Of a stretch of DNA of 64,000 bases, positions 6,402 through 57,980 are shown one piece after another. Origin of the DNA: Fibrobacter succinogenes. Lineage in GTDB: Bacteria; Fibrobacterota; Fibrobacteria; Fibrobacterales; Fibrobacteraceae. Position 1 is the stretch's first letter. Each line of letters starts with the position of its first letter. The position numbers and the translations under genes were made by a program. The DNA lies in assembly GCA_902768715.1 (NCBI GenBank), contig CACXMH010000013.1, positions 410-64,409 of the forward strand, read 5' to 3'. Below the pieces are notes generated by a model. The model saw only the letters and a program-made list of their open reading frames with translations. It had not been told where the DNA came from and searched no databases.

Positions 6402-6422
6402 TTCCTGTCGATGTTTAAAAGG

Positions 6423-6513: not shown

Positions 6514-6566
6514 GCGGATCCTCGCCTTGGTTCGACGCAGCTCACCACAGGTCGCGAGGATGACGT
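6514..6566. repeat. GGATCCTCGC...GCGAGGATGAC hairpin repeat (long-loop variant)
   Basis: The arms GGATCCTCGC and GCGAGGATGAC are separated by about 27 nt. A near-identical copy lies at 22567-22617. Confidence 0.8.
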
Positions 6567-11288: not shown

Positions 11289-13754
11289 CTATTTCCTATT
11301 CTCCGCTGACCAGATGAGCTCTTCGAGAGTCTGGTACAGGTGTTCCGGTTCCACCGGTTTCGAAAGGTGCGCGTTCATGCCTACCTGCAGGGAACGCTGC
11401 ACGTCTTCGTCGAAGGCGTTTGCGGTCATGGCCACGATGGGCACCGTCCGGGCATCGCTCCGGTCCAGGGCGCGTATGGCCCGGGTCGCTTCCAGACCGT
11501 CCATTTCGGGCATGCGGATGTCCATCAAGATGGCATCGTAGTAATTTTCGTTGCTCTTGGCGAACATGTCCAGTGCAATCTGGCCGTTTCCGGCGTGATC
11601 GACAATGGCGTCTTTTACCGTCAACAGTTCCTTCATGATTTCGGCATTGATGAGGATGTCTTCGGCCAGCAGGATATGCCGCCCGGCGAGGCTTGCACGG
11701 CATTTTTTCTTGAAAAGGTTCATGTTGTTTCGACGGGCGATACGTTCGAACTCGTCGATGACGTTGCTTGCAAAGAGCGGTTTCGCAAGGAAACTGTCCA
11801 CCCCGATATGCAGCGCCTCGTCCATGATTTCGTCCCAGTTGTAGGCGGTAAGGATAATCACCGTAGTCTCGTTGTCGTAACGTTCACGGATCTTTGTCGC
11901 CACTTCCAGACCGTCCATGTTGGGCATTTTCCAGTCCAGGAGCACCAGGTTGTAGGGTTCGTGCTTGGCGTGCTTTACCTCCAGCATCTGCAGGGCTTCT
12001 TCGCCGCTGGTGCTGGTGTCCGCCTTGATGCCCGCCTCATCCAGCACGAACCGCGCGTGTTCGCAGGCGATGGGGTCGTCATCGACGACCAGCACGCTGA
12101 TGTCGCGCAGGTTCACGTGGCCTATCGACACTACCTCGTGGTCGCAGTTCTTGAGGGTCACCACCACCGTGAATACGGAACCTTCGCCTTTCTTTGACCT
12201 TACCGAGATAGAACCGTTCATCATTTCCACGATGTTCTTGGTAATCGCCATGCCAAGCCCTGTGGAGCCGAACTTGTTCTTGCGGCTGGAATCTTCCTGG
12301 GTAAAGGAATCGAACACCTTCGGGATAAAGGATTCGTCCATGCCGATACCCGTGTCTTTCACCTCGAATTTCAGGGTGCTCTGGTCTTCGAACTGGGCCA
12401 CCTTGGAAATGGTAAGGGTGATGCTCCCGGGGGCTTCGGTAAACTTGATGGCGTTGCTCAAGATGTTGATGAACACCTGCTTGAGCTTCATGTCGTCGCC
12501 GATAAAGTAGTCGTCAACATGGCCCTCGATATGGCATTCGAATTTGAGGCCCTTGTCCGAGCACTGGGACATGACCATGGTGTTGATCTGCTCTAGCATT
12601 CCGGCAAAGGAGAACTCCTCCTTGCGCATCACCAGCCTGCCGGATTCGATTCGGCTCATGTCCAGAATGTCGTTGATGAGCCCCAGCAGGTGCCGTGCAC
12701 TCCCGCCAATCTTTTCCAGGTATTCCCGGGTCCGCTCCGAAATGGCCGGGTCTCTCAGGGCGAGGCTGTTGAGGCCGATGATGGCGTTCATGGGCGTGCG
12801 GATTTCGTGGCTCATGTTCGAAAGGAAGGCGGTCTTTGCCTTGCTGGCCTCTTCCGCCGCATCCAGCGCTTCGCCCAGGGCCTGGTTCTTGGCCATGGAA
12901 TCCCGCATTTCGGCATCGATGATGGTAAGCCCCATGCCTACCGCATGCACCATGTGGTCCTTGCGGTCTTCGGGGTGATGCACCCCTGCCATGCGGATCA
13001 TTTCGTAGTATTCCTTGCCGTCCCGGCGGGCCAGGTAGCGGTAGGCGATCAGTTGTTCGTTCTGGAGCGCCTCGCGGATGTTCGCGGGCTCGATGAACTT
13101 CAAGAATCCTTCGCGGTATTTTTCCGTAACGCAGTTGTTGCCGTAGTCCCGGAACCGTTCCAGGTAAGGGAAATGCACTCCTTCGGCGTGCTGGTGGTGG
13201 TCTTCGGGGTCGCCGCGGTAACAGACGGCGTCGTCCTTGTCGAGGTCCACGTGATAGACGCTTCGGTAGTCCGAGGCCATGGCGGTAATCATGCTGTCCA
13301 GCTGCGCCCGCTGTTTTTGGCCTTCCAACAGCTTCTGTTCAATCTGTTCGTGCTTTTCGGTAATGTCCGAAATAAACACGTAGTAGAGCCCGCCGTAGTT
13401 TTCGCTGTCGGCGTAGTGTCCGTAATCATCTACCCAACGGAGCTTTCCGTCTTTGCGCTTGATGCGGTACTCGACATAGTCCAGTTTTTCGCTTGATTTT
13501 ACGATTTGCTTGTTGATAGAGGACTGAATTTTTTCGTAATCCTCGGTGTAAACCATGCCCTTGAAGGTGAAACCGGTCAGTGACTTGAATTCGTCCAGGT
13601 CACGGCACCCGAAAATATCGAACACCGTGTGGTTTGCGTAGAGCAGTTCTCCATCACCTTGTGCCTTGTAGATGAAGAATCCACCGGGCATGTAGCGCCC
13701 GATGTCTTCTACGATGGACATGTTCTTGTCGTTCAGCTTGAAATGGTTGAACAT
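11289..13754 (-). CDS. Cytoplasmic PAS-domain hybrid histidine kinase with two receiver domains
   Basis: No TM segments. The N-terminus is PAS-like. H-box [14 protein letters not shown] and an HATPase domain are present. REC1 is VLVVDDDP...[12 protein letters not shown] and REC2 is [10 protein letters not shown]...[12 protein letters not shown]. Confidence 0.9.
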
Positions 13755-15831: not shown

Positions 15832-18441
15832 TTATGGAATCATCGTTTCCAGGGTTTCAAAGAGGGTTTCGGGCTGCACGGGCTTTGAAAGGTGGGCGTT
15901 GAGGCCCGCCTGCAGGCTCCGCTGCACGTCTTCGTCGAAGGCGTTGGCCGTAAGGGCGATAATCGGGATTTTCTTGGCGTCGGCCCGGTCCATCTTTCGG
16001 ATGGCCATGGTGGCCTGCAAGCCGTCCATTTCCGGCATGCGCATGTCCATGAGAATGGCGTCGTAATAGCCTTCGGGCTGCTTGCTGAACATCTCCACGG
16101 CAATCTTGCCGTTTACGGCGATGTCCGTTTTCATGCCGCGCATTTCCAGAACGTTTTCCATAATCTGGGCGTTGACTTCTACGTCTTCGGCAAGGAGTAT
16201 GTGCCTGCCCTTCAGTTCCGCCTTTTTGCGGGAAGACTGTTCTGCGCTCCGTTTTTTCTTGAGCACGGTCTTGAATTCGTCCAGCAGCGCTCCCGTAAAG
16301 ATTGGCTTTGCGATAAAGCTATCTACGCCGGCCTGGATGGCCTCGTCCAGGATGTCGTCCCAGTTGTAGGCGGTTAGGATAATGATTGCCGACTCGTCGC
16401 CGGTGGTGGCGCGTATCTGCCTTGCGGTCTCTACGCCGTCCATCTCGGGCATCTGCCAGTCCACGATAATCAGGTTGAAAGGCTCCCTGCGGGCGTGGCG
16501 CAGCTTGACCATCTCCACGGCCTCCTTTCCGGAATTGGCCGTTTCGGTGGCGATTCCCGCCAGCTCCAGCACCAGCTTTGCATGCTCCAGGGCCACCGGG
16601 TCGTCATCGACTACAAGCACGCTCAGTTCGTTCAGGTTGATGTCGATGTCTCCGTTGTCCTTCTCGTGCTTTTTCGTAGAATCTTGCAGGGTGACGGTAA
16701 TGGTAAAGGTGGTGCCCTTGCCCTTTTCGCTTTCTACCTCGATGTTGCCGTTCATCAGTTCCACGATACTCTTGGAAATGGCAAGGCCCAGGCCAGAACC
16801 GCCATACTTGCTGGAACTGCTGGTGTTTTCTTGGGTAAAGGTCTCGAACAGCTTGGGCAAGAATTCCTTGCTCATGCCGATACCCGTGTCCTTGATGGTA
16901 AACCGGAGGGTGGACTTGCTGTTGAACGAGGCTGTCTTCTGGACGCTGAAATCGATGCTCCCGCCCTTGTTGGTGAACTTGACGGCGTTTCCGAGGATGT
17001 TGATGAGCACCTGTCGGAGCTTCATGTCGTCGCCTACGAAGTATTCGTCTATGTTTCCGACAAAGTGGCAGTTGTACTGGATTCCCTTTTCTTGACACTG
17101 CACGCTGAACATGGTGTTCACCTGCTCCATAAGCTTGGAGAAGGGGAATTCTTCGTTTTTCAGGGCGAACTTGCCCGATTCGATGCGGGACATGTCCAGG
17201 ATTTCGTTGATGAGGTTCAGCAGGTGTTCGGCGGAGCCTCCGATTTTTTGCAGGTAGTCCTTGACCTTGTCCGAAAGTCCCGGTTCATGGAGGGCGAGGC
17301 TGTCCAGCCCGATGATGGCGTTCATTGGGGTGCGAATCTCGTGGCTCATGTTGGAGAGGAATATGGTCTTTGCCCTGTTGGATTCTTCTGCCACCTTCAG
17401 GGCCTCGGACAGGGCCTCCCGCTTGATACGGTCCTCGGCTTCCTGGATTTCGTGCTGGAGCGAAACCCTTGTGGTGCGCCGGACATGCAAGATGATAAAG
17501 ACGAACATGGCGACGAGCACAAAGGCCGTTACCGCCGAAAGGAACTGGCTCCGGACGATGATTCCCGAAGAGATGCTGCCAATCTGGTTGCTGATGACAC
17601 TTTCCCGGATGAGGTAGGTGAGCATCCAGTCCGTGTTGTGGATGGGCACGTAGTACAGGGTCTCGCGAATGTTGTTGTAGGTGAACGAGACTTCGCCTTC
17701 GATGTGTCCGTTGAAATCGTCCTTTACCTTTTCAAAGGAATAGCCCATGTCGTAATCGGCGTGACTGAGGGCATTCAGCAGGTTGTCTTCGCTGGCAAGG
17801 CCTCCCAGCACCATGTTGGTGAGGGCTTTCCCGTCTTTGGTGTAGATGTTACAGAAGGTGGAGTTGTTGTTGCCTCCCTGCAAGGAGAGCCCTTCTAGCA
17901 GGTTCGGGATACTCAATTCCATGAAGCACACCACCAGGACCCGGTCTTCTAGGGGTAGCCGGTCAACGGGGATGGCGATGATGATGGTCTTGTTTTCGGC
18001 GCTTACGTTCTTGATGGAAATTTCGGGTTTCTGGAGGTTGTTGTAGTCGATGTTGTACAGTTGGATGTCGGTGCGGGTTCCACGGGAGGTGTAGATAAGT
18101 CCCGTAGTGTCCACGAAGGCAAACTTTTCGAGCCCGTAGAGCTGTTTCATACGGGCCTGGTAGGCCTGGAGTTTTTCGATGCTCTTGAGGTCGTCTTTTT
18201 CGATAAGGCCTATGGCGATGTCCATGTCGCTGATAAAGTCCGCAAGCCTTGCGGAAACCACCTGCTCGCGACGTTCGGCCAGTTCGTTCAGGTAAAGGAG
18301 GCTCACGCTCCTGACAGCCTTTTCGGTGTCTGCGCCGGCGCTTTTGCCGTTCCAGAAAGAGCCTACAATCAGAATGGCCGCTACAACGATTGCCGCCGTG
18401 ATGGCGGCCCGCATAATGCTGGCCTGTTTTTTTGATTCCAT
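15832..18441 (-). CDS. Hybrid histidine kinase with a periplasmic Cache-like sensor domain and two receiver domains
   Basis: Two TM helices bracket a ~270-aa extracytoplasmic domain. H-box [14 protein letters not shown] and an HATPase domain are present. REC1 is VLVVDDDP...IIVDWQMPEMDG and REC2 is ILLAEDVEVN...ILMDMRMPEMDG. Confidence 0.9.
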   Translation of the reverse strand: MESKKQASIMRAAITAAIVVAAILIVGSFWNGKSAGADTEKAVRSVSLLYLNELAERREQVVSARLADFISDMDIAIGLIEKDDLKSIEKLQAYQARMKQLYGLEKFAFVDTTGLIYTSRGTRTDIQLYNIDYNNLQKPEISIKNVSAENKTIIIAIPVDRLPLEDRVLVVCFMELSIPNLLEGLSLQGGNNNSTFCNIYTKDGKALTNMVLGGLASEDNLLNALSHADYDMGYSFEKVKDDFNGHIEGEVSFTYNNIRETLYYVPIHNTDWMLTYLIRESVISNQIGSISSGIIVRSQFLSAVTAFVLVAMFVFIILHVRRTTRVSLQHEIQEAEDRIKREALSEALKVAEESNRAKTIFLSNMSHEIRTPMNAIIGLDSLALHEPGLSDKVKDYLQKIGGSAEHLLNLINEILDMSRIESGKFALKNEEFPFSKLMEQVNTMFSVQCQEKGIQYNCHFVGNIDEYFVGDDMKLRQVLINILGNAVKFTNKGGSIDFSVQKTASFNSKSTLRFTIKDTGIGMSKEFLPKLFETFTQENTSSSSKYGGSGLGLAISKSIVELMNGNIEVESEKGKGTTFTITVTLQDSTKKHEKDNGDIDINLNELSVLVVDDDPVALEHAKLVLELAGIATETANSGKEAVEMVKLRHARREPFNLIIVDWQMPEMDGVETARQIRATTGDESAIIILTAYNWDDILDEAIQAGVDSFIAKPIFTGALLDEFKTVLKKKRSAEQSSRKKAELKGRHILLAEDVEVNAQIMENVLEMRGMKTDIAVNGKIAVEMFSKQPEGYYDAILMDMRMPEMDGLQATMAIRKMDRADAKKIPIIALTANAFDEDVQRSLQAGLNAHLSKPVQPETLFETLETMIP

Positions 18442-22546: not shown

Positions 22547-22652
22547 ACCCTAATACCTACATCTAGCGGATCCTCGCCTTGGTTCGACTTCGCTTACCAC
22601 AGGTCGCGAGGATGACAATCCTAGCCCCTAGATCCTAGATCCTAACCCCTGG
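22547..22652. repeat. Composite repeat: 3 heptads, GGATCCTCGC...GCGAGGATGAC hairpin, then 5 CTAG-type heptads
   Basis: accctaa tacctac atctag, then the hairpin at 22567-22617, then atcctag cccctag atcctag atcctaa cccctgg. The last heptads contain the stop codon of the 22642-23646 gene. Confidence 0.8.
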
Positions 22653-23646
22653 CAACCAAACTGTCCAGGAACAGACGCTGGGCCTTGGAGTCGTACATGA
22701 CCACGTCGTAGAGCTCGCCCAACTTGCCGGTGCGGGATTCTACCATAAGCCCTGCCAGGGAGCCTTTTTCGGTGGGGAGGAACGCGCCCTTGCCGTCGGG
22801 AGATTCCTTGAATTCCAGGTAGCCTTCGGACACGAACCAATCGCGGATTACTTTGTAGTAAATGCGTTCCGTGTTGGGGCCAATCAGGGCATTGAGACGC
22901 CGTGCAATCTCGCTTACCGGTATGGGAGTTTCGTCGGCGGGGTAGTTGCTCAGTTCTTCTGCAGAAACATGAAATTTTTCACGAGTCTTGCGAAGTGAGT
23001 TCCCTTCTTCGGCACCGTCTTCGTCGGCATGGTTGGAACCGCGGTTTGCAAAGCGTTCGTTGGCGATGTCGATACACTTCTGGAGGTTGTCCAACACGTA
23101 CTGTTGGGCCTTTTCCCAGCATTGGGTATAGATGTTGTGGTGGCCCCGCAGGTCCGATTCGCCCTTCTCGAACCCGTAAGATTCTCCGAGTTCTGTGGGC
23201 AGGTTCGCTTCGGTTCCGTTTTCGGTCATCTGACGGGCGAGGATGCCCTGCTGAACCAAGAAGTTGGCCACGTCAGCGTAGAGCAGGTGGTTCATGTTCA
23301 CGCCAGCGGGGATAAGTTCGTTGATATTGCGGACCACCCGGGAAATGGAGACGGGGTAGTCGAAGAAACGGTATTTACTAACAGCTTCGGGGGCAATAGA
23401 AAGGGGCTGCTTGGGGGTCTTGGGCGCTTTAGGTGCGGGCTTGCGGGGAGCGCTCACCGGGGCCAACTGTTCGTGGTTCAGCTGTTGTTGCAACAGGGAA
23501 GCCACATAGGCGAGGCACTTGCTGATTCGTTCCTGTTTGCAGGAGTCCCCTTCGGGGAGGATTTCGTCGGTAAGAGGGTTGATGCCGCAAGACAATTTGC
23601 GCAGGTACATTTCGGCACGTTCGATAATTGCATTTTCAGAAGCCAT
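22642..23646 (-). CDS. Hypothetical protein with an internal duplication
   Basis: Long ORF with no overlapping alternative. Two similar ~70-aa segments (PVSISRVVRNINELIP...LPTELGESYG and PVSEIARRLNALIG...LPTEKGSLAG). I recognise no family. Confidence 0.5.
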   Translation of the reverse strand: MASENAIIERAEMYLRKLSCGINPLTDEILPEGDSCKQERISKCLAYVASLLQQQLNHEQLAPVSAPRKPAPKAPKTPKQPLSIAPEAVSKYRFFDYPVSISRVVRNINELIPAGVNMNHLLYADVANFLVQQGILARQMTENGTEANLPTELGESYGFEKGESDLRGHHNIYTQCWEKAQQYVLDNLQKCIDIANERFANRGSNHADEDGAEEGNSLRKTREKFHVSAEELSNYPADETPIPVSEIARRLNALIGPNTERIYYKVIRDWFVSEGYLEFKESPDGKGAFLPTEKGSLAGLMVESRTGKLGELYDVVMYDSKAQRLFLDSLVARG

Positions 23647-27533: not shown

Positions 27534-28547
27534 CTACTCTTCTACAACCAGGTCCATGGCCCGTTGGAGCATTCCGGCGGCGTCTTTTGTTTTGGGGGCT
27601 TCTTGGCTCAAGACCTGACGGAATTTTCGGGCGCCGGGGAGTCCAGTGAACAGCCCGTAGAGGTGGCGTGTGAGGATGGTAGCTGGAGTCCCTTTGGAAA
27701 ATTCCTTTTCCACATAGGGCAGATAGGCTTCGAGAACCGCTTTGCGGGACGCGGGCTTCCCTTCTTTTGTCATTCCCGGCTTGGCCGGGAATCTCCCATC
27801 ACAGAATATTCTCTCGTCGGCATCCCGCAGGAACCAAGGATTCTCGTAGGCTTCGCGACCCACCATCACGCCGTCCAGGTCTTTCAGCTGTTCTTCTACC
27901 TGGTCCATGGTTTTGATGCCGCCGTTGATGGAAATGTTCAGCTGGGGCATCTCGGCCTTTAAATTGTGGACAAATTCATATTTCAACGGCGGAACTTCCC
28001 GGTTCTCCTTGGGACTGAGCCCCTTGAGCCAGGCCTTTCGGGCGTGTATAATGAAAATTCGGCAGCCTGCGTCGGCGATAGTCCCGACAAAGTTCCGGAA
28101 AAATTCCCAGCTGTCGAATTCATCTACGCCGATGCGGCACTTGATGGAAACGGGAATGGAGACGGCGTCTTGCATGGCCTTGAAACAGTCCGCCACCAGG
28201 TTCTTGTCCTTCATGAGGCAGGCACCGAAGTTTCCGTTCTGTACCCGGTCCGAAGGGCATCCGCAGTTCAGGTTCACTTCGCCAAAGCCTGCGCATTCCA
28301 CCATCTTGCTTGCCGCCGCAAGTTCTGCAGGGTCGCTTCCGCCCAGTTGCAGCACCGCGGGCATTTCGCAGTCTTCGTGGCCCAGGAACAGTTCCGGGTC
28401 CTTGCAGTGCAAAAGTCCTGTAGATACCACCATCTCGCTGTAGAGCAAGATGTTCTTGGAAATCAACCGCAAAAAATACCGCTCGTGACGGTCGGTGCAG
28501 TCCAGCATGGGGGCGATAGAAAGCCGTCGGTTGAAATCCAGGTCCAT
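27534..28547 (-). CDS. dusA: tRNA-dihydrouridine synthase A
   Basis: N-terminal RLSIAPMLDCTDRHERYFLRL and a TIM-barrel Dus pattern (NLNCGCPS, IKCRIG, IIHARKA). Confidence 0.85.
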   Translation of the reverse strand: MDLDFNRRLSIAPMLDCTDRHERYFLRLISKNILLYSEMVVSTGLLHCKDPELFLGHEDCEMPAVLQLGGSDPAELAAASKMVECAGFGEVNLNCGCPSDRVQNGNFGACLMKDKNLVADCFKAMQDAVSIPVSIKCRIGVDEFDSWEFFRNFVGTIADAGCRIFIIHARKAWLKGLSPKENREVPPLKYEFVHNLKAEMPQLNISINGGIKTMDQVEEQLKDLDGVMVGREAYENPWFLRDADERIFCDGRFPAKPGMTKEGKPASRKAVLEAYLPYVEKEFSKGTPATILTRHLYGLFTGLPGARKFRQVLSQEAPKTKDAAGMLQRAMDLVVEE

Positions 28548-28562
28548 GGGGGGAAAGATAGT

Positions 28563-28711
28563 AATTAGGGGTTAGGTATTAGGTAATAGGTTGTAGGTAT
28601 TAGGGGTGCAGGTTTCAAGAAGCGTCATCCTGAGGAGTGTAGCGACGAAGGATCCAGTCTGTAGGAATAGGTAAACTGTGGTTTTGGGTCGCTTCGCTTT
28701 GAGGAGTGAGG
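28563..28711 (-). repeat. ~150-nt composite intergenic element (heptad array, GTCATCC...GGATCC hairpin, conserved flank); inverted copy of 41989-42137
   Basis: The reverse complement aligns by eye almost base-for-base with 41989-42137 (ctcaaagc.aa.cgacc.aaaccacagtttacctattcctac.gactggatccttcgtcgct.cactcctcaggatgac.cttcttg.aacctgcaccccta...). Confidence 0.85.
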
Positions 28712-28734: not shown

Positions 28735-28763
28735 TGTCATCCTCGCGAAGGCGAGGATCCGCC
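28735..28763. repeat. GTCATCCTCGC gaag GCGAGGATCC hairpin repeat (short-loop variant)
   Basis: Perfect ATCCTCGC/GCGAGGAT stem. The same unit occurs at 53013-53040. Confidence 0.85.
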
Positions 28764-33654: not shown

Positions 33655-33737
33655 GTCATCCTGGAGCGCGTAGCGCGATAGGATCCACCCCAATTTGTCA
33701 TGCCCCGTCATCCTGGAGCGAAGCGACGGGATCCAGT
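33655..33737. repeat. Two GTCATCCTGGAGCG...GGATCC hairpin repeats
   Basis: gtcatcctggagcgcgtagcgcgataggatcc and gtcatcctggagcgaagcgacgggatccagtc. The second resembles 28623-28658 and 42047-42078. Confidence 0.8.
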
Positions 33738-39368: not shown

Positions 39369-39461
39369 CCGTGAGCAACAAAGCCCCTGGTATTAACCAG
39401 GGGCGGTTGCGAGAGTGAGCGCAGTCCGGAGAATTTGCTCCTGACTTTGGCGCGAACGGTC
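39369..39461 (-). repeat. Conserved ~95-nt two-hairpin element immediately 3' of ilvN (copy A)
   Basis: The minus strand reads TAAgc GACCGTTCGCGCCAAAGTCAGGAGCAAATTCTCCGGACTGCGCTCACTCTCGCAACC GCCCCTGG ttaata CCAGGGGC TTTGTTGCTCAC. It matches 55852-56041. Confidence 0.85.
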
Positions 39462-41988: not shown

Positions 41989-42137
41989 CCTCACACTTCA
42001 AAGCAAAACGACCTCAAACCACAGTTTACCTATTCCTACGGACTGGATCCTTCGTCGCTGCACTCCTCAGGATGACACTTCTTGTAACCTGCACCCCTAC
42101 AACCTACAACCTACAACCTAACCACTAGCCCCTAACC
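41989..42137 (+). repeat. ~150-nt composite intergenic element, inverted copy of 28563-28711, ending at the rnhB ATG
   Basis: The modules are a conserved flank, the hairpin GGATCCTTCGTCGCTGCACTCCTCAGGATGAC, then the heptads cctgcac ccctaca acctaca acctaca acctaac cactagc ccctaac. Confidence 0.85.
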
Positions 42138-42857: not shown

Positions 42858-42860
42858 AAA

Positions 42861-42936
42861 ATGAGTAATGAGTTGCGAGTTGTGAGTCGTGAGTAGTGGG
42901 AAATTACACCCCTCACACCCCACACTTCACATCTAG
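42861..42936. repeat. Dyad-symmetric heptad array (11 units)
   Basis: atgagta atgagtt gcgagtt gtgagtc gtgagta gtgggaa attacac ccctcac accccac acttcac atctag. The left-arm GTGAG units face right-arm CTCAC units. Confidence 0.85.
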
Positions 42937-48015: not shown

Positions 48016-49323
48016 ATGAGAGAAAATTTGAAAAGGTTTGTTTGGGGACTTGTCCTTGCCTTGGCCTGTGTTTTCCCGCAGGGAGTGTTTGCCTCTATCG
48101 ATACCATTGCCGTAGATGTGGGTATTTCTGTTTTCAAGACTACGCCCATAGGCATTGTCCCCTTTGAAGAAAAACCGGGTATTGACTGGATCGAGGAAAA
48201 ACCCCATCAGATTTTGACTCGCGATGCGAACCTTTCGGGACGCTTTGATGTGGTGGCTTCTGAAAAGTTTAACTTGGCCCTGTTCAGCCGCTCCAAGGCG
48301 AAGCATTACATGACGGGGAAGGTTGAACCTACAAGCGATGGCCGCCTTGCCGTAGATTGTTACTTGTATGTGTCCCAGTCCAAGGACTTGCTCCTTGGTG
48401 AACGCTATACGGTGCCTCAGAAGGAACTCCGCCGTGCCATGCACGCCTTCTTTGACAAGGTGATTTACCAGCTGTGGGGTGAGCGCGGCGTGGCCAGCAC
48501 CCGCATTGCATACGTTTCGAAGATTGACGGTGTGAAGCAGGTGGTGGTGTCCGATTATGATGGTTTCCACCGCTCCCAGATTACCAGGGATTCCACTATA
48601 AGCATGATGCCGGTGTGGACCCGAAACAACAAGGGTCTTGTGTATGTGAACTTCAAGACCAACCGCCCGAGACTCTACACCAAGAACTTTGGCAGGCCCG
48701 AAAAGCCCTTGTTCGAACAGTTCGACCAGACCTACAGCCCTGCGGTGAATCCCGTGAATGGGGAACTTTTATTCTCCTCTTCTAAGGACGGCAAGACGGA
48801 CTTGTATATCGGAAACATGGAGACGGGCAAGGCCCGCAAGTTTGCCTACCTGAAGAGCAACCAGACCAGCCCCGCTTGGAGCCCGTATGCTACCGAAGTC
48901 TTGTTTACCAGCGACCGTGGTGGTGGCCCGCAGATTTTTGTGATGGGCAAGGACGGAAGCGACCTGCGTCGAGTGACCTTTATGGGCCGTTACAATGAAC
49001 GCGCCAGCTGGTCACCCGAAGGAGACCGCATTGCCTACACCTCCATGGACAACGGCAAGATGAACATTTACACCTGCGCCCTGGACGGTAGCGACATTGT
49101 GCAGCTCACCAACAACGCAGGTAATAATGAACACCCCACCTGGTCGCCGGATGGCAAGCTTATTGCTTTTTCTAGCAACCGGAGCGGCACCTACCAGATT
49201 TACATTATGCGGAAAGACGGAAGCAACGTGACCCGCATTACCCAGGCCGGCGAAAATACTGCGCCTACATGGTCCTGGTTCTACGAAGAAAATAAACCAC
49301 AACCTAAAGAAGGATCCAAATGA
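48016..49323 (+). CDS. tolB: Tol-Pal system beta-propeller protein TolB
   Basis: Signal peptide after the ATG at 48016. Repeated WD40-like PD40 motifs (P.WSPDG..IAF.S.R.G). The track start at 47986 is a TTG. Confidence 0.85.
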   Translation: MRENLKRFVWGLVLALACVFPQGVFASIDTIAVDVGISVFKTTPIGIVPFEEKPGIDWIEEKPHQILTRDANLSGRFDVVASEKFNLALFSRSKAKHYMTGKVEPTSDGRLAVDCYLYVSQSKDLLLGERYTVPQKELRRAMHAFFDKVIYQLWGERGVASTRIAYVSKIDGVKQVVVSDYDGFHRSQITRDSTISMMPVWTRNNKGLVYVNFKTNRPRLYTKNFGRPEKPLFEQFDQTYSPAVNPVNGELLFSSSKDGKTDLYIGNMETGKARKFAYLKSNQTSPAWSPYATEVLFTSDRGGGPQIFVMGKDGSDLRRVTFMGRYNERASWSPEGDRIAYTSMDNGKMNIYTCALDGSDIVQLTNNAGNNEHPTWSPDGKLIAFSSNRSGTYQIYIMRKDGSNVTRITQAGENTAPTWSWFYEENKPQPKEGSK

Positions 49324-49904
49324 AAAACATCGTCAAGATTGCATTGATTTCTAGCGCTGCCTGCCTTGCATTGGTGGCGTGTGCCAAGAAGCAGCAACCC
49401 CAGACTGACCCTGCTGCCGAAGCTACTCCTGCCGCTGCCGCAGGCCAGGAAGCAGCTCCTGCCATGACTCAGGCCCAGGCTGATTCCCTGGCTGCCGAAC
49501 AGGCCCGCCTAGAGGCGGAACGCCTGGAAGCAGAACGCGCCCGTCTGGAAGCGCTTATTAACCAGATTATGTCTGAAGACGTTTACTTTGACTTTGACCG
49601 TTCGGAACTCACAGAAAAGGCCAAGGAACTGCTGGCCCAAGTGGGCGAACTGTTGCTCAAGGAACAGCGCTTCACCATCACCATCGAAGGCCACACCGAT
49701 GCCCGCGGTACAGAAGACTATAACTTTACTTTGGGTGCAAAGCGCGCCATGAAGGTGAAGGAATTCCTGGCCGCCTATGGTATCGAGAACAGCCGTATGG
49801 AATCGGTGAGTTACGGTAAGGAAGCCCCGAAGGCCGCTGGTGAAACGGAAGAAGCCTATTCCCAGAACCGCCGTGCCAACTTCCGCGTGAATATCAAGCA
49901 GTAA
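49320..49904 (+). CDS. pal: Peptidoglycan-associated lipoprotein (OmpA family)
   Basis: Lipobox LALVACAK. The OmpA_C domain has VYFDFDRSELT, IEGHTDARGTEDYNFTLGAKRA and NRRANF. Confidence 0.88.
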   Translation: MKNIVKIALISSAACLALVACAKKQQPQTDPAAEATPAAAAGQEAAPAMTQAQADSLAAEQARLEAERLEAERARLEALINQIMSEDVYFDFDRSELTEKAKELLAQVGELLLKEQRFTITIEGHTDARGTEDYNFTLGAKRAMKVKEFLAAYGIENSRMESVSYGKEAPKAAGETEEAYSQNRRANFRVNIKQ

Positions 49905-49988
49905 TTATAGGTTTTAGGTTATAGGTATTAGGTTTTAGGTAGTAGGTATTAGGTCCGAGGCCCTAGCCCCTAGATCCTAGCCCCTAAA
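49905..49988. repeat. Dyad-symmetric heptad array (12 units) between pal and ybgF
   Basis: ttatagg ttttagg ttatagg tattagg ttttagg tagtagg tattagg tccgagg ccctagc ccctaga tcctagc ccctaaa. Confidence 0.9.
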
Positions 49989-50024
49989 TTCCAACAATCT
50001 ATTCATTCTTCAACAATTACGAAT

Positions 50025-50960
50025 ATGAAACGTTTATCGATTTGTATTGCTGCAACGCTTATAGCCCTTACGGGCTGTTCCAAGATTACCATGCTCCGTA
50101 CCGAGGAGATGAAGGCTGTGGGTAGCGATGTGCAGACGGGTATGCAGCAGGGTCTGGATTCTGCCGTGCTGAAACTTTCTGCAGAGAACGATTCCCTGCG
50201 TGCGGAGATGGATAGTCTGAAGGCTCAACTGGAGGCTTCTGCCCTGGTGCAAAAACGCATGATGGCCGAAGTCACCATGCTGTCGCGCCGTATGGGTGAT
50301 GAATCGGAAAGGAACGATTCCAGGCAAGAAGAAATCATCTACCGCTTGGATATGCTGCTGGGCAAGAGCGACAAGATTCTGGCCAAGAAGGTTGTGGTCA
50401 GCGGTGCTCCTGCGGCTCCCATTTCTATGGACAGCCTGGAGCGTGAAGCCGAAAAGCTGGTGGAAGCCGAAGCCATGTTCAATACGGCCCGTTCCGACTA
50501 CCATCGCGGTGAATACAAGCTTGCCTACGCCGGTTTCAAGCAGGTCTATGAACAGATGAAGACCGGTGAACTTGGGGAGAATTCCCTTTATTGGATGGCG
50601 CTGTGCCTGATTGACGCCAACCAGGTGGAAAAGGCGAAGAAGGTGTTTGTGAGCCTCGCGGACGCTTTCCCCGAAGGCCAGAAGGTCTGCACTACCATGT
50701 TCAAGCTGGCGGCTATCTACAGCACCGAAGGCAACATCGATATGCAGAAGCAGTACCTGCAGAAAATTCTGAATAGCAAGACTTGCTCTACTTCGGGAGA
50801 ATTCGAACAGGCGGCAGAAATCTTGCAAGAGATTCTGGAACAGGAAACTCAGACGGGTCCCAAGACTGCCGAACCATCGAATGGTCCTGAGGCCGCCGCA
50901 CCTGCGACGGATGCCCCTGCGACAGAAGCTCAGCCTGCCGCACCAGCGCCTGCTCCGTGA
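50025..50960 (+). CDS. Tol-Pal system protein YbgF/CpoB-like (coiled coil plus TPR)
   Basis: Lipoprotein-like signal (LIALTGCS), an N-terminal coiled coil, C-terminal TPR-like repeats, and its position after pal. Confidence 0.7.
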   Translation: MKRLSICIAATLIALTGCSKITMLRTEEMKAVGSDVQTGMQQGLDSAVLKLSAENDSLRAEMDSLKAQLEASALVQKRMMAEVTMLSRRMGDESERNDSRQEEIIYRLDMLLGKSDKILAKKVVVSGAPAAPISMDSLEREAEKLVEAEAMFNTARSDYHRGEYKLAYAGFKQVYEQMKTGELGENSLYWMALCLIDANQVEKAKKVFVSLADAFPEGQKVCTTMFKLAAIYSTEGNIDMQKQYLQKILNSKTCSTSGEFEQAAEILQEILEQETQTGPKTAEPSNGPEAAAPATDAPATEAQPAAPAPAP

Positions 50961-51018: not shown

Positions 51019-51054
51019 AAAAAAGGCGAGTCAGATGACTCGCCCTTTCTTTAT
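51019..51054. terminator. Bidirectional intrinsic terminator
   Basis: AAAAAA GGCGAGTC agat GACTCGCC CTTTCTTT between convergent genes. Confidence 0.75.
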
Positions 51055-52787: not shown

Positions 52788-52962
52788 ATGTGAGGTCGGG
52801 GCTTCGCCCCTTTGAGGTATGGGGTATGAGGTGTGGTCCTTCAGGTCAAGCAATGTGGAATGTGTAGTGAATCATGAGTTGTGAGTTGTGAGGTGTGGGT
52901 CGTGAGTAGTGTGTAATGTGTAGTGTGGAGTGTGGAGTGTGGGATGAATAATGAACGATGAT
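52788..52962 (+). repeat. Heptad array, about 25 consecutive 7-nt units of type NNNTGNG
   Basis: In register from 52788: ...caatgtg gaatgtg tagtgaa tcatgag ttgtgag ttgtgag gtgtggg tcgtgag tagtgtg taatgtg tagtgtg gagtgtg gagtgtg ggatgaa taatgaa cgatgat. Confidence 0.9.
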
Positions 52963-52970
52963 TCCATCTT

Positions 52971-53099
52971 CGTCATGTTCGCGAAGGCGAACATCTGCTA
53001 GCTGTTATCAAGCGGATCCTCGCCTTCGCGAGGATGACGTTCCTCAAAGCGAAGCGACCTCAAACCCCTAGCCCCTAGATCCTAGCCCCTAGCCCCTAA
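52971..53099. repeat. Two hairpin repeats, the conserved flank module, and 5 CCCCTAG-type heptads
   Basis: GTTCGC gaag GCGAAC; GGATCCTCGC cttc GCGAGGATGAC; cctcaaagcgaagcgacctcaaacc (the same flank as in 28563-28711 and 41989-42137); cccctag cccctag atcctag cccctag cccctaa. Confidence 0.85.
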
Positions 53100-53106
53100 T
53101 CTCTAT

Positions 53107-54204
53107 CTATTTCTCGATAATTGCCGAGGCCACGATGCCGTCGCCGGCGTAGAGCACCATGATTTGCCCGGGGGTGGCGGCGAATTGCGGCGTGTCGAAC
53201 CGGATAGAAATTCGGTTGTCTGTAAGTTCGGTAATGCTTGCTTCGGCGAAGGTGTGACCCAGCCGGATTTTTGCCTGGAGTTTCTGCTGCAGCAGGGGAG
53301 AATCCTTGGAAACCATCAGGTTCAGCTGGCTCCCGCTGACTTCGCTGCATTGCAACAGACTGCGAGGGCCGAGCACCACTTGATTCTTCTTGACGTCGAT
53401 GGCAATCACGAAAAGGGGCTCCGGCTGTCCGCCGATGTTCAGCCCTTTCCTTTGCCCGATGGTGTAATGGATGAACCCTTTGTGCTGCCCTAGGACTTTG
53501 CCGTTTACATCTACGAAGTCCCCGGGAACGTTGTCGCTTTCGTCAAAGAGCACGGAGTAGTCGCCGCATTCCAGAAAATCCTGGCTTTCTTTTTTGGAGG
53601 CAAAATCTTCCCAGCCGATTTTACGGGCCAGTTCCTTGACCTCTTCCTTGTGCATCTCGCCCAGCGGGAACAGCACCGACGAAAGCTGGTCTTCGGTTAG
53701 CCTGGAAAGGAAATAGGACTGGTCCTTGAAAGAGTCCCGGGCTTTCCACAGGAATGGTTCTTCGGGGCTTCTGAAATCCAGGCGGGCGTAGTGCCCCGTG
53801 GCAAAGTAGTCAAAATCTACGCCCATCTTGCGGACGGCGTGGAGCATGGCTCCGAACTTGATGGACTGGTTACAGCGTACACATGGGTTAGGCGTGCGGC
53901 CCGCCCGGTATTCGGCGCGGAAATAGTCCAGCACGTTTTTCTTGTATTCCTCTACCACGGAAACCACATGGAAGGGAATAGACAGGCGCTTGGCCACATT
54001 CTCGGCGGCTTCGATGCTTTCCCCTTCGTTGGGGCCGAAACATCCGGAGCGGCCCTCCACGATGGGCATGTCGATGGAACCGTCCCAGAGGGCCATGGTG
54101 ATGCCTATGACGTTGTAGCCCTTCTGCTGCAAGGTCCAGGCGGTAAGGGCGGAATCTACGCCTCCCGAAAGACCGACTGCTACTGTTTTGTTGCCTAGTT
54201 CCAT
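53107..54204 (-). CDS. mnmA: tRNA-specific 2-thiouridylase
   Basis: PP-loop VAVGLSGGVDSA, the CN..IKF motif, ATGHYA, and overall length. Confidence 0.92.
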   Translation of the reverse strand: MELGNKTVAVGLSGGVDSALTAWTLQQKGYNVIGITMALWDGSIDMPIVEGRSGCFGPNEGESIEAAENVAKRLSIPFHVVSVVEEYKKNVLDYFRAEYRAGRTPNPCVRCNQSIKFGAMLHAVRKMGVDFDYFATGHYARLDFRSPEEPFLWKARDSFKDQSYFLSRLTEDQLSSVLFPLGEMHKEEVKELARKIGWEDFASKKESQDFLECGDYSVLFDESDNVPGDFVDVNGKVLGQHKGFIHYTIGQRKGLNIGGQPEPLFVIAIDVKKNQVVLGPRSLLQCSEVSGSQLNLMVSKDSPLLQQKLQAKIRLGHTFAEASITELTDNRISIRFDTPQFAATPGQIMVLYAGDGIVASAIIEK

Positions 54205-55851: not shown

Positions 55852-55946
55852 GACCGTTCGTGCTAAAAGCCGGAGCAAATTCTCCGGCCGGCACTCACTC
55901 TCACAACCACGCTCGGTTAATACCGAGCGTTTGTTGTTCACAATAA
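55852..55946 (+). repeat. Conserved 95-nt two-hairpin element, copy B (directly after the efp TAA)
   Basis: GACCGTTCGTGCTAAAAG CCGGAG caaatt CTCCGG CCGGCACTCACTCTCACAACC ACGCTCGG ttaata CCGAGCGT TTGTTGTTCACAATAA. Confidence 0.9.
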
Positions 55947-56041
55947 GACCGTTCGTGCTAAAAGCCGGAGCAAATTCTCCGGACTGCACTCACTCTCGCA
56001 ACCGCCCCAGTTTAATAACTGGGGCTTTGTTGCTCACGTAG
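55947..56041 (+). repeat. Conserved 95-nt two-hairpin element, copy C (tandem to copy B)
   Basis: The same element, with the second stem changed to GCCCCAG tttaataa CTGGGGC. Confidence 0.9.
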
Positions 56042-56886: not shown

Positions 56887-57861
56887 TTATTTCAATGATT
56901 TTCTAAAGACCCGGGCGACTTCGTCCGGGTCGTCGCTTTTTAGCCAGCTGAGGGTCTCGGTACCGCGGTAGCTCCAGGCGAAAATATTGTCGATGCCAGC
57001 CTTGCGGCTTTCGGCTACGGCAATGGCCAGGTCGTTTTCGCGGCCCGCTTCGATCTGGTAGGCCTTAATCCACATTTGCACGGCCTTGCCGTATTTGGCG
57101 GCCACGGTCACGAGTTTGTGGGCGGTCTCGGCGTACTTTTCGCGAACCCATTCTTCGGTGGCGCCCCGTTCCCAGTAAGGATCGCTGGCGATTTCATCTA
57201 CGCTATCCATGGATGCCACGCGGCCCCAGTCGTTGAGGCCTGCCGGAAACCAGGGCGGCAACATGCACACGCAGTTACGCTTGCCACGGGCGTGAACATC
57301 TTCCGTCATTTCCTTCAAAAAGTCGATAAGCGAATCTTCGCGGAACTTCAACACGTCTTCGGTGAGTTCGGCGGGCATCTCGTAACCGAATTGCGCGCAG
57401 AACTTTTCGCGACATTTCTCACAACGGCAGCTCCAGTTCTGGAGTCCGCCCTTCTCAAAGTAAAAATGAGGTTCATCCCAGAAGATGGTGCTTACTTTGG
57501 TCGCACAGACGGATTCAATCCAGCGGTGCATGTAGGCCCGGAATTCCGGATGGTTGGGGCAGGCGGCCACCTTAGGCTTGCCGTCCAGTGCCACCTGGCA
57601 CAGGTCGTGGTTACGGGCGGTAAGTTCGGAATAGGCTTCTCCGCCGAATACGCGGCCCACTCCCCAGGGGTTCACATAGACTGTTAGACCTAGCTCGGCG
57701 GTCCGGTCCACGATTTCAGCCATGGTGTCGTAGTAATACTGCTGGTCTTCTTCGCTCCAAGTGTGGAGCACGGCGTTGAAACCTGCCGCCTTGATGTCTT
57801 GCATGTCGGTTAACGCATGCTTTGGCGTGCGTACGCCGAAATAACTGACGCCTTTAATCAT
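56887..57861 (-). CDS. Hypothetical TIM-barrel, glycoside-hydrolase-like protein
   Basis: Alternating beta/alpha pattern (GVSYFGV, GFNAVLHTW, GLTVYVNPWG, IFWDEPHF) plus a CRCEKCREKFC cluster. The family assignment is uncertain. Confidence 0.35.
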   Translation of the reverse strand: MIKGVSYFGVRTPKHALTDMQDIKAAGFNAVLHTWSEEDQQYYYDTMAEIVDRTAELGLTVYVNPWGVGRVFGGEAYSELTARNHDLCQVALDGKPKVAACPNHPEFRAYMHRWIESVCATKVSTIFWDEPHFYFEKGGLQNWSCRCEKCREKFCAQFGYEMPAELTEDVLKFREDSLIDFLKEMTEDVHARGKRNCVCMLPPWFPAGLNDWGRVASMDSVDEIASDPYWERGATEEWVREKYAETAHKLVTVAAKYGKAVQMWIKAYQIEAGRENDLAIAVAESRKAGIDNIFAWSYRGTETLSWLKSDDPDEVARVFRKSLK

Positions 57862-57883
57862 ACAGGCTCAATATAGAACTTAG

Positions 57884-57967
57884 GAGTAATGTGTAGTGTG
57901 TAATGTGTAATGAGAGGTGTACAATGTATAATCAGTCATTTCACATTATACATTCCACATCTCACAC
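57884..57967. repeat. Dyad-symmetric heptad array (12 units) containing a perfect 10-bp inverted repeat
   Basis: gagtaat gtgtagt gtgtaat gtgtaat gagaggt gtacaat gtataat cagtcat ttcacat tatacat tccacat ctcacac. AATGTATAAT (57923-57932) pairs with ATTATACATT (57945-57954). Confidence 0.9.
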
Positions 57968-57980
57968 CGCCGTGTAGCGG

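What the first reader, a model, noticed from the sequence alone, without database searches (positions are those of the whole stretch)
49905..49988. Dyad-symmetric heptad array inserted inside the tol-pal cluster, between pal and ybgF
Twelve perfect-register heptads start 1 nt after the pal stop. There are eight NNNTAGG units (ttatagg ttttagg ttatagg tattagg ttttagg tagtagg tattagg tccgagg), followed by four units of the complementary type (ccctagc ccctaga tcctagc ccctaaa).

The two halves are inverted relative to each other, so the RNA or DNA could fold into a long imperfect hairpin centred near 49958.

The CTAG-containing units put stop codons in all six frames, because CTAG is its own reverse complement and the period is 7.

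In E. coli, pal and ybgF/cpoB are co-transcribed. An 84-nt structured insert here could therefore uncouple or attenuate ybgF expression.
Basis: partly seen in the sequence, partly recalled or inferred. Interest (0 to 1): 0.7.

Follow-up and report, generated by a model that had tools for sequence, protein, structure and literature searches.

The report
Paired heptamer repeats between pal and ybgF
Two opposite-facing runs of 7-base repeats sit between two cell-envelope genes; they are one copy of a common, fast-changing kind of bacterial intergenic repeat already described in other phyla, and nothing here shows they act as a special regulatory switch.

Summary
Eight NNNTAGG heptads (49905-49960) start directly after the pal stop codon. 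Four CCTAG-type heptads follow in the same register (49961-49988), and all six frames carry stops.

It is not a one-off insert. Period 7 is the only enriched tandem period in the window, and at least seven intergenic regions carry such arrays. TAGG heptad arrays also occur in many phyla. Across phyla the G-rich strand abuts the ORF on its 5' side (67 of 79, p=2e-10). Often a TAG of the array serves as the gene's stop codon. The complementary array, when present, always lies downstream (10 versus 0). These are the rules published for heptameric repeats in Xanthomonas and Nostoc (Rehm 2015).

The proposed hairpin folds no better than shuffled sequence (RNA z=-0.26, DNA z=0.16) and has no U-tract. 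A canonical terminator follows ybgF instead. Strains with an identical Pal protein carry a different heptad array with no dyad. Other lineages have an 18-20 nt junction or unrelated dyads.

Best reading: a heptamer-repeat pair generated by replication slippage, filtered for orientation and dispensable. It is a new member of a known kind. A mild REP-like effect on the mRNA cannot be excluded.

The parts
49320..49904 (+). pal-like gene (OmpA-domain lipoprotein); its TAA stop (49902-49904) directly abuts the array
   Evidence: ORF. The best NCBIfam hit is TIGR02802 Pal, 119 bits, just below the cut-off of 125. Pfam OmpA was found on identical proteins.
49905..49960 (+). G-arm: eight heptads T-N-N-T-A-G-G. 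It has no C until the last unit and carries TAG in all three frames of the sense strand.
   Evidence: Columns 1 and 4-7 are nearly invariant and columns 2-3 vary. A 21-nt higher-order period gives 92% matches.
49961..49988 (+). C-arm: four heptads of CCCTAG/CCCTAA type, the reverse-complement type of the G-arm. This arm varies in unit number between strains.
   Evidence: L003 has about three more units and L129 one more.
49989..50024 (+). Leader of the ybgF-like gene with almost no G and no Shine-Dalgarno-like sequence
   Evidence: Read directly. It contains no G until the GAAT directly before the ATG.
50025..50960 (+). ybgF/cpoB-like gene (lipoprotein signal, coiled coil, TPR)
   Evidence: ORF. 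The best NCBIfam hit is TIGR02795 tol_pal_ybgF, 48.9 bits, below the cut-off of 90.1.
51025..51044 (+). Canonical intrinsic-terminator-like hairpin plus T-run after ybgF, the likely end of the operon
   Evidence: 8-pair stem with 6 G-C pairs and tail CTTTCTTTAT.
22618..22651 (-). Family member: TAGG heptads on the minus strand. The stop codon of the minus-strand ORF 22642-23646 is a TAG of the array. A GTCATCC..GGATC hairpin module abuts it.
28559..28604 (+). Family member: six TAGG heptads, 16 nt from the start of the minus-strand ORF 27534-28547. It is part of a 147-nt composite repeat.
42096..42134 (-). Family member: CCTA heptads on the + strand, ending 3 nt before the ATG at 42138. It is the inverted copy of the 147-nt composite.
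42859..42934 (+). Family member of another unit type: GAGT-type heptads starting 1 nt after the stop at 42857, then a CACACCC-type complementary arm
   Evidence: fold z = -1.44
52867..52948 (+). Family member: GTGAGTT/GTGTGTA heptads downstream of the DJ-1-like gene
53060..53105 (-). Family member: TAGGGGC heptads on the minus strand, directly after the stop of the mnmA-like ORF 53107-54204
57878..57966 (+). Family member: GTAATGT heptads followed by their complement. This dyad folds far better than chance.
   Evidence: fold -32 kcal/mol, z = -4.88

Best explanation
The feature is a convergent pair of heptanucleotide simple-sequence-repeat arrays. It belongs to a class of intergenic 7-nt tandem repeats that is common in this genome and in many bacterial phyla.

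**Shown**
- The arrays are period-7 specific.
- They sit with the G-rich, C-poor strand running 5'->3' away from the nearest ORF. That strand carries stop codons.
- When paired, the order is always G-arm then C-arm.
- They gain and lose whole units, and are replaced or absent in close relatives.

**Inferred: origin.** The arrays arise and change by replication slippage of 7-nt units, as Mrazek 2007 proposed. Here 14- and 21-nt blocks also duplicate. Recombination between alleles adds further change.

**Inferred: orientation filter.**
- An arm that carries TAG in all three frames can abut or overlap a gene end without ever extending the protein.
- An arm without G contains no ATG, GTG or TTG and no Shine-Dalgarno-like run, so it can sit in front of a start codon.

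**Inferred: effect.** At pal-ybgF the array is probably transcribed as part of the tol-pal mRNA. It forms only short 4-6 bp helices separated by 3-nt loops, and it does not terminate transcription. Its effect on ybgF is therefore expected to be small. At most it would be a weak barrier to 3'-exonucleases, like a REP element.
For: **Family in the window**
- Of periods 3-15, only 7 and 14 (plus a trace at period 6) give arrays.
- Seven of about 22 intergenic regions of at least 60 nt hold heptads, in co-directional, convergent and divergent contexts.

**Spread across phyla**
- Hits came from Cyanobacteria, Planctomycetota, Bacteroidota, Acidobacteriota, Proteobacteria, Firmicutes, Fibrobacter MAGs and others.

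**Orientation and pairing**
- 67 of 79 arrays lie closer to the ORF on the 5' side of the G strand: median 7 nt versus 117 nt, p = 2e-10.
- 28 of 56 same-strand ORFs of at least 150 aa end on a TAG of the array.
- A CCTA x3 partner within 250 nt was found downstream 10 times and upstream 0 times.
- All 12 Fibrobacter-type arrays scored obey the rule; one case is near-tied, 56 versus 58 nt.

**Independence from unit sequence**
- In the cross-phylum loci, 62 non-TAGG arrays have period 7. No other period from 4 to 15 has more than 5.

**Turnover**
- Identical-Pal strains carry the window allele (four contigs), a longer C-arm (L003), or an AATTCGG array (L002, L005).
- 45 related loci have junctions of 18-195 nt with many different dyads.
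- The 319-nt DJ-1/mnmA spacer full of heptads is 3 nt long in L002 and L005.

**No terminator and no special fold**
-.
- In Fibrobacter MAG locus L082 a similar dyad is followed by a separate canonical terminator.

**Literature**
- Rehm et al. 2015 (PMC4692102) report the same position and strand rule, overlap with stop codons, convergent pairs and length variation.
- Heptamers are the most abundant long repeat class, and the polymerase-slippage idea is cited there and in PMC4679880.
Against: - **Concentrated variation.** Units differ mainly at 2-3 of the 7 positions while TAGG(T) is kept. This is not what uniform decay of a slippage product predicts.
- **A conserved left arm.** Between the window and L129, pal third codon positions differ by 15.5%. 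The left arm shows 0-1 substitution in about 50 nt. That hints at constraint, although local recombination blocks confound the comparison.
- **Strong hairpins elsewhere.** Other dyads at this same junction or in this window fold far better than chance, z = -4.7 to -5.7. Pairing may be selected in the class even if this copy is weak.
- **Recurrence.** Different dyads recur at the pal-ybgF junction in many lineages. This could reflect selection rather than mere permissiveness.
- **Untested steps.** Slippage, and the reason for a 7-nt unit, are hypotheses from the literature and were not tested here.
Confidence: 0.6

Rival explanations
1. **Intercistronic hairpin acting like a REP/BIME element.** The G-arm and C-arm pair in the tol-pal mRNA and block 3'->5' exonucleases. 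The pal-proximal transcript would then outlast the ybgF part, or read-through would be attenuated. This would set a high Pal to low YbgF ratio.
For: - Dyads with heptad arms and often a central GC hairpin recur at this junction in many lineages.
- Several fold strongly: L139 z = -4.74, L149 z = -5.30, L151 z = -5.69. The L003 allele of the focal array reaches z = -2.27.
- The array abuts the pal stop codon.
- REP-like GTCATCC..GGATC hairpins occupy the same junction in other lineages.
Against: - The focal allele folds no better than shuffles.
- Conspecific strains carry an array with no dyad, and several lineages have an 18-20 nt junction. A hairpin is therefore not required.
- Single arms without partners are common.
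- No expression data are available.
Confidence: 0.17
2. **Binding array for a single-strand nucleic-acid-binding protein.** Candidates are a cold-shock-domain protein, ribosomal protein S1 or another 7-nt-footprint binder. It would coat the UAGGU-NN repeats, or the C-rich complement, to tune translation or stability. MacGregor 2015 proposed this for TAACTGA heptamers.
For: - The core TAGG(T) is conserved with 2-3 variable positions per unit.
- The left arm is substitution-poor between lineages.
- C-rich arms lie within a few nt of start codons that lack a Shine-Dalgarno sequence.
- The hypothesis appears in the literature (PMC4679880).
Against: - Heptad arrays of many unrelated unit sequences coexist in the same genomes and obey the same rules. 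This argues against a sequence-specific binder.
- Arrays are dispensable in close relatives.
- No candidate protein was identified or tested.
Confidence: 0.08
3. **Small mobile or copied mosaic element.** On this reading the element is MITE- or BIME-like. The dyad arms would be its inverted ends, and the whole unit was inserted at the pal stop codon.
For: - A 147-nt composite of heptads plus a GTCATCC hairpin occurs twice in inverted orientation at 88% identity (28565-28711 and 41989-42135).
- Modules recur in different combinations in several spacers.
- Different modules occupy the same junction in different lineages.
Against: - The focal array has no non-heptad core and no clear target-site duplication. 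No second copy of the whole 84-nt unit exists in the window.
- Variation between alleles is by whole heptads, which is typical of slippage.
- Rehm et al. found no association with mobile elements.
Confidence: 0.1
4. **Non-B DNA or RNA element.** A G-quadruplex on the G-rich strand, or an i-motif on the C-rich strand, would modulate transcription. Rehm et al. proposed this for GGGAATC repeats.
For: - The antisense strand of the C-arm reads GGGG..GG..GGGG..GGG.
- The same CTAGGGG unit occurs in Pseudoxanthomonas and Thiobacillus arrays.
- The strand and position rule is the same as for the quadruplex-forming repeats.
Against: - The eight-unit left arm has only GG doublets.
- The C-arm complement has three, not four, runs of at least 3 G.
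- Other heptad types in the window (GTAATGT, GAGT-type) cannot form quadruplexes, yet they behave alike.
Confidence: 0.05

Closest known systems
G-rich heptameric simple sequence repeats of Xanthomonas (GGGAATC) and Nostoc (GGGGA(C/T)T), Rehm et al. 2015, PMC4692102
   Same: - 7-nt tandem unit, intergenic.
- G-rich strand on the coding strand within 50 bp of, or overlapping, the stop codon, or on the non-coding strand upstream of an ORF.
- Convergent inverted pairs.
- Unit number differs between relatives.
- No association with particular gene functions.
   Different: - The unit here is T-N-N-T-A-G-G with only GG, so a canonical quadruplex is not possible in the left arm.
- Units are more degenerate (82% matches).
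- The phylum is different (Fibrobacter-like).
- The arrays are often joined to GTCATCC..GGATC hairpin modules.
Long simple sequence repeats with 7-nt units (Mrazek, Guo and Shah 2007), including the STRR heptamers of heterocystous cyanobacteria (Mazel 1990; from my own knowledge and as cited in PMC4692102)
   Same: - Excess of period 7 over other periods.
- Non-coding location.
- Scattered phylogenetic distribution.
- Slippage proposed as the origin.
   Different: Those surveys scored near-perfect repeats. They did not describe the dyad arrangement or the use of array TAGs as stop codons.
TAACTGA heptamer repeats of marine Beggiatoaceae (MacGregor 2015, PMC4679880)
   Same: Heptamer arrays lie a few nt upstream of start codons that lack Shine-Dalgarno sequences, and the unit contains stop codons.
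   Different: - A single dominant unit sequence.
- Mostly 2-6 copies.
- No paired inverted arrays.
- Proposed as a translational regulon.
REP/BIME elements of enterobacteria
   Same: - Intergenic, often intercistronic or after stop codons.
- Palindromic, and mosaic with other motifs.
- Variable between strains.
- Can stabilise upstream mRNA.
   Different: REPs are about 35-nt imperfect palindromes without 7-nt periodicity, and they are linked to RAYT transposases. Neither the REP sequence nor a RAYT was looked for or found here.
Rho-independent terminator
   Same: An inverted repeat downstream of a gene.
   Different: The junction has no G+C-rich continuous stem and no U-tract. A canonical terminator lies after ybgF instead.

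Membership tests
Bacterial intergenic heptanucleotide repeat arrays (long SSRs, 7-nt unit) | Head-to-tail copies of a 7-nt unit, more than chance gives | tested here: met
   TRF reports period 7 with 6.7 copies, plus 3.7 copies for the second arm. The five-unit pattern gives 16 matches against 0 expected.
Bacterial intergenic heptanucleotide repeat arrays (long SSRs, 7-nt unit) | Period 7 over-represented relative to other periods in the same genome | tested here: met
   Window: 22 positions score at period 7, 13 at period 14, 3 at period 6 and 0 at other periods from 3 to 15. Cross-phylum loci: 62 further period-7 arrays against at most 5 for any other period. Only 64 kb of this genome was available.
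Bacterial intergenic heptanucleotide repeat arrays (long SSRs, 7-nt unit) | Non-coding location | tested here: met
   The array lies between ORFs 49320-49904 and 50025-50960, with stops in all six frames.
Bacterial intergenic heptanucleotide repeat arrays (long SSRs, 7-nt unit) | Unit-number polymorphism among close relatives | tested here: met
   L003 has about three extra C-arm units. L129 has one fewer G-arm unit and one more C-arm unit.
Rehm-type G-rich heptamer repeats | G-rich strand on the coding strand within 50 bp after the stop codon, and C-rich strand on the coding strand upstream of the next ORF | tested here: met
   The G-arm is 0 nt from the pal stop and the C-arm is 36 nt from the ybgF start. 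The rule holds for 12 of 12 Fibrobacter-type arrays (one near-tied) and for 67 of 79 cross-phylum arrays.
Rehm-type G-rich heptamer repeats | Convergent inverted pairs (G-arm then C-arm) | tested here: met
   The focal array shows this order. Partners were found downstream 10 times and upstream 0 times in 94 arrays.
Rehm-type G-rich heptamer repeats | At least four runs of 3 or more G, able to form a G-quadruplex | tested here: not met
   The left arm has GG only. The complement of the right arm has three runs of 3 or more G (read).
Rho-independent terminator | G+C-rich stem-loop followed by a U-tract | tested here: not met
   No terminator-like site lies in 49905-50024, and one lies at 51025-51044 after ybgF. 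Fold z = -0.26.
REP/BIME-type intercistronic stabiliser hairpin | Stable stem-loop in the transcript that is conserved at the site | tested here: not met
   The focal fold equals that of shuffles. The dyad is absent in strains with an identical Pal protein. Other lineages do have stable dyads here, so a working resemblance cannot be excluded for the class.
REP/BIME-type intercistronic stabiliser hairpin | Effect on the half-life of upstream mRNA | not testable with these tools
   This needs RNA decay or 3'-end data.
Known structured RNA families (Rfam 15) | Match to a covariance model | tested here: not met
   No match for 49700-50200 at E <= 1. In the whole window only two tRNAs match.
TRAP-type (G/U)AG repeat binding site | About 9-11 (G/U)AG triplets separated by 2-3 nt | tested here: not met
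   The UAG triplets here are separated by 4 nt (period 7). The TRAP spacing is from my own knowledge. No TRAP gene was sought.

The most novel reading that the evidence does not exclude
Heptad arrays would be a selected, cross-phylum 'gene-boundary' element rather than slippage debris. Three observations leave this open.
- The G/T-rich arm gives a gene end an all-frame stop. In about half of the cases scored, a TAG of the array is the stop codon itself.
- The G-free arm gives the next gene a leader with no start codons and little structure.
- The pair always has the order G-arm then C-arm, so C-rich RNA emerges only when its partner is already present.

Such a pair could act as a hairpin that protects mRNA. 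It could also control where Rho can load on sense and antisense transcripts. On this reading, the repeated and independent appearance of different heptad dyads at the pal-ybgF junction of many Fibrobacter lineages reflects selection to set the Pal:YbgF ratio.
Probability: 0.12. Interest if true: 0.6.

Novelty: new member of a known kind. Interest (0 to 1): 0.3.

Why it matters
**For this locus, little.** The array is one dispensable copy of a common repeat. It should not be annotated as a regulatory element of tol-pal without expression data.

**More generally:**
- The heptamer-repeat phenomenon described for Xanthomonas and Nostoc extends to Fibrobacter-like rumen bacteria and, for TAGG-type units, to many phyla.
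- The same strand and position rules hold throughout, and arrays frequently supply the stop codon.
- The function of this class, and the reason for a 7-nt unit, have been open since 1990-2007. The natural allele series at pal-ybgF offers a simple test system: TAGG dyad, AATTCGG array, strong dyads and an 18-nt junction.

Tried and rejected
- **Known RNA family.** Rfam gave nothing at gathering thresholds for the window, and nothing at E <= 1 for 49700-50200.
- **Terminator or attenuator.** No terminator-like site lies in the junction, and the sigma-70-type promoter scan also found nothing.
- **Stable RNA hairpin or DNA cruciform.** z-scores were -0.47, -0.26, -0.77 (RNA) and 0.16 (DNA). The minus strand gave z = -0.84.
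- **G-quadruplex.** The G runs are too short in the left arm.
- **TRAP-like triplet array.** The spacing is wrong.
- **Conservation as evidence of function.**
  - The left arm is substitution-poor between the window and L129.
  - Divergence along the locus is patchy, at 0-13 substitutions per 100 nt, which indicates recombination blocks. I do not treat this as proof of constraint. The AATTCGG allele comparison is confounded in the same way.
- **Literature on Fibrobacter heptads.** Two searches found none. One search failed on syntax, as did one DNA pattern.
- **Organism.** It was not determined directly.
  - The identical Pal protein occurs on metagenome contigs.
  - Three GTDB Fibrobacter MAG contigs show the same array and module architecture.
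  - 'Fibrobacter' is therefore plausible but inferred.
- **Caveat on ORF calling.** ORFs in the statistics were called by a simple longest-ORF rule. An ORF reading into a TAG-rich array must stop there, which could inflate the 'stop inside the array' counts. Restricting to ORFs of at least 150 aa kept the pattern.

Full report
**1. The observation**

The sequence is as described. The pal-like ORF ends with TAA at 49902-49904. Twelve heptads in one register follow from 49905 to 49988. Eight are of the type T-N-N-T-A-G-G and four are of the complementary CCCTAG type. The ybgF-like ORF starts at 50025.

Tandem Repeats Finder reports period 7 for both halves. For the left half it also reports periods 14 and 21 with higher identity, 89% and 92%. 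A five-unit TAGGNNN pattern never occurs in shuffled versions of the window. All six reading frames are closed.

The gene names are reasonable. The neighbours are tolQ/R-like, a TonB/TolA-like gene and tolB. The best family hits are Pal, YbgF and TolB, although each falls below NCBI's curated cut-off.

**2. The hairpin**

The pairing consists of 4-6 bp blocks separated by 3-nt internal loops.

| Molecule folded | Energy or result | z-score |
|---|---|---|
| RNA, 91 nt | -23.0 kcal/mol; 79 of 200 shuffles fold at least as well | -0.26 |
| RNA with flanks | not better than shuffles | -0.47 and -0.77 |
| DNA | -7.2 kcal/mol | 0.16 |

The pattern scan finds no terminator-like site in the junction. 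It finds a canonical stem plus T-run 65 nt after the ybgF stop, at 51025-51044. Several other spacers in the window also end in classical terminators. This organism therefore uses ordinary terminators, and the array is not one of them. Rfam has no match.

**3. It is one of a family**

Among periods 3-15, only period 7 and its multiple 14 give arrays in the window, apart from a trace at period 6. Heptad arrays occur in seven intergenic regions:
- TAGG/CCTA type at 22618, 28559, 42096, 49905 and 53060.
- GAGT/GTGT type at 42859, 52867 and 57878, some with a CA-rich complementary arm.

Some arrays are fused to GTCATCC..GGATC hairpin modules, of which the window has seven copies. A 147-nt composite of heptads plus such a module is present twice in inverted orientation at 88% identity.

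In every case the G-rich, C-poor strand runs 5'->3' away from the nearest ORF. It lies on the sense strand after stop codons. Its G-poor complement lies on the sense strand before start codons. At 22642 the gene's stop codon is a TAG of the array itself.

**4. The same junction in relatives**

Contigs encoding the identical Pal protein fall into three junction types:
- The window allele (four contigs).
- The same left arm with a longer right arm (L003).
- A 63-nt junction carrying AATTCGG heptads with no complementary arm (L002, L005). Flanking genes are 94-98% identical. This replacement also covers the first ~65 nt of ybgF.

Forty-five Fibrobacter-like metagenome loci have junctions of 18 to 195 nt:
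- Several lineages have a compact TAA-TTCGAGGT...-ATG junction of 18-20 nt. This is probably the ancestral state.
- Others carry quite different heptad dyads, often around a short GC hairpin.
- Others carry GTCATCC..GGATC modules.

Several of those other dyads fold far better than chance, with z = -4.7 to -5.7, as does the window's own dyad at 57875-57970 with z = -4.9.

The 319-nt heptad-rich spacer between the DJ-1-like and mnmA-like genes is 3 nt long in L002 and L005. These elements are therefore dispensable. They turn over by whole-unit gains and losses and by allele replacement.

At the substitution level they are not hypervariable. Between the window and L129, pal third codon positions differ by 15.5%, yet the left arm has 0-1 substitution in about 50 nt. 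Divergence along the locus is patchy, which points to recombination, so I treat this only as a hint of constraint.

**5. Beyond this genus**

Hits came from Cyanobacteria, Planctomycetota, Bacteroidota, Acidobacteriota, Alpha-, Beta- and Gammaproteobacteria, Firmicutes, Verrucomicrobia, candidate phyla, two archaeal MAGs and three Fibrobacter MAGs.

I oriented all arrays on the TAGG strand and used simple ORF calls:
- 67 of 79 arrays lie closer to the ORF on the 5' side. The median distance is 7 nt versus 117 nt, p = 2e-10.
- With ORFs of at least 150 aa, 28 of 56 same-strand ORFs end on a TAG of the array, and 43 of 56 end within 10 nt of it.
- A CCTA x3 partner within 250 nt was found downstream in 10 arrays and upstream in none.
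- The same loci contain 62 further period-7 arrays of other unit sequences. No other period has more than 5.

The Fibrobacter MAG loci show the same architecture as the window. In L082 a dyad is followed by a separate canonical terminator.

**6. What is known**

Rehm et al. 2015 (PMC4692102) described GGGAATC and GGGGA(C/T)T heptamer repeats in Xanthomonas and Nostoc:
- They are intergenic.
[quoted passage not shown] Alternatively it lies on the non-coding strand upstream of an ORF.
- There are 70-75 convergent inverted pairs per Xanthomonas genome.
- Lengths differ between species.
- They are mostly transcribed, and the function is unresolved.

That paper and MacGregor 2015 (PMC4679880) summarise Mrazek et al. 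2007. Heptanucleotide units are the most abundant long repeat class, perhaps because 7 nt matches the stretch held by the DNA polymerase and so favours slippage. MacGregor describes TAACTGA heptamers just upstream of start codons and proposes S1, Csp or CsrA-like binders. I found no paper describing such repeats in Fibrobacter.

**7. Interpretation**

The feature is a new member of this known class. The classification rests on defining features that were tested: period, location, excess of period 7, the strand and position rule, convergent pairing and unit-number polymorphism. The quadruplex criterion is not met.

The mechanism is inferred:
- Arrays arise by slippage, and here also by duplication of 14- and 21-nt blocks.
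- Selection then filters orientation. All three stop codons lack C, and all three start codons contain G. A C-free arm can therefore abut or overlap a gene end in any frame. A G-free arm can precede a start codon without creating false starts.

The array is most likely co-transcribed and has little effect on ybgF.

The main rival is a REP-like role for the pair as an intercistronic hairpin. Strong dyads recur at this junction in other lineages, which keeps this reading alive for the class. The focal allele is weak, and conspecific strains do without any dyad.

A sequence-specific binding protein is unlikely, because many unit sequences behave alike. The conserved core of the units remains unexplained.

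**8. Verdict**

- The 'insert' and 'dyad' parts of the interpretation are supported.
- The 'structured attenuator of ybgF' part is not supported.
- Interest is modest: a clear, previously undescribed Fibrobacter instance of an old and still unexplained repeat class, with a useful natural allele series for testing it.

Noticed in passing
window 6517-6564, 22569-22616, 28624-28654, 28736-28759, 33655-33685, 42046-42076, 53015-53038: Seven copies of a hairpin module GTCATCCT...AGGATC with variable inner sequence, against 0 expected by chance. They lie in intergenic regions, often next to heptad arrays. The same module type sits in the pal-ybgF junction of other lineages (L145, L147, L148, L155, L158) and in Fibrobacter MAG loci L082 and L089. 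It looks like a REP-like dispersed repeat family.
   Followed up: partly
window 28565-28711 and 41989-42135: A 147-nt composite of TAGG heptads, a spacer, a GTCATCC hairpin and more is present twice in inverted orientation at 88% identity. Each copy lies upstream of a gene start. Heptad arrays can therefore be copied as part of larger units.
   Followed up: partly
window 52788-53106 versus L002 and L005 about 6400-6404: The convergent spacer between the DJ-1-like and mnmA-like genes is 319 nt of heptads and hairpin modules in the window. In L002 and L005 (about 94-95% identical genes) only 3 nt (GGG) separate the two stop codons.
   Followed up: yes
L008-L127 (cross-phylum loci): In 28 of 56 cases with an ORF of at least 150 aa on the same strand, the ORF's stop codon is a TAG of the heptad array (offsets -3, -10, -17, -24). 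Gene ends frequently run into these arrays. The simple ORF calling used could inflate this count.
   Followed up: partly
window 49905-50090 versus L002 3586-3715: The alternative junction allele (AATTCGG heptads) also replaces the first ~65 nt of ybgF, so the lipoprotein signal peptide differs (MKRLSICIAATLIALTGC versus MKKLAIGIVSIAFALVGC). The rest of ybgF is 97.9% identical. The recombination block therefore spans the junction plus the signal-peptide coding sequence.
   Followed up: partly
L011 4-84 and 2997-3035 (Rhodothermales MAG contig): The contig begins with 12 perfect TTTAGGG units, which is the plant-type telomere repeat, and has 6 more units 3 kb further in. This may be a contig-end artefact, contamination or another heptamer array.
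   Followed up: no
window 39370-39461, 55852-55924, 55947-56038: A repeat of about 90 nt (GACCGTTCGTGCTAAAAGCCGGAGCAAATTCTCCGG...) is present twice in tandem at 55852-56038 and once inverted at 39370-39461, at 82-89% identity. Each copy ends in a terminator-like hairpin. It may be a small RNA gene family or a 3' UTR module.
   Followed up: no
window 6599-7779, 11322-12883, 15847-17417: Three paralogous gene segments lie 4.5-5.1 kb apart at 60-78% nucleotide identity (repeat families D1-D3 and D5-D9). This indicates a tandem set of three related large minus-strand genes.
   Followed up: no
window 1208-1990: Eight copies of a 90-nt coding repeat lie within the minus-strand ORF 896-2959.
   Followed up: no
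window 57875-57970: The GTAATGT/complement heptad dyad upstream of the minus-strand ORF 56887-57861 folds at -32 kcal/mol with z = -4.88. It is the strongest hairpin among the window's heptad dyads, unlike the focal array.
   Followed up: partly
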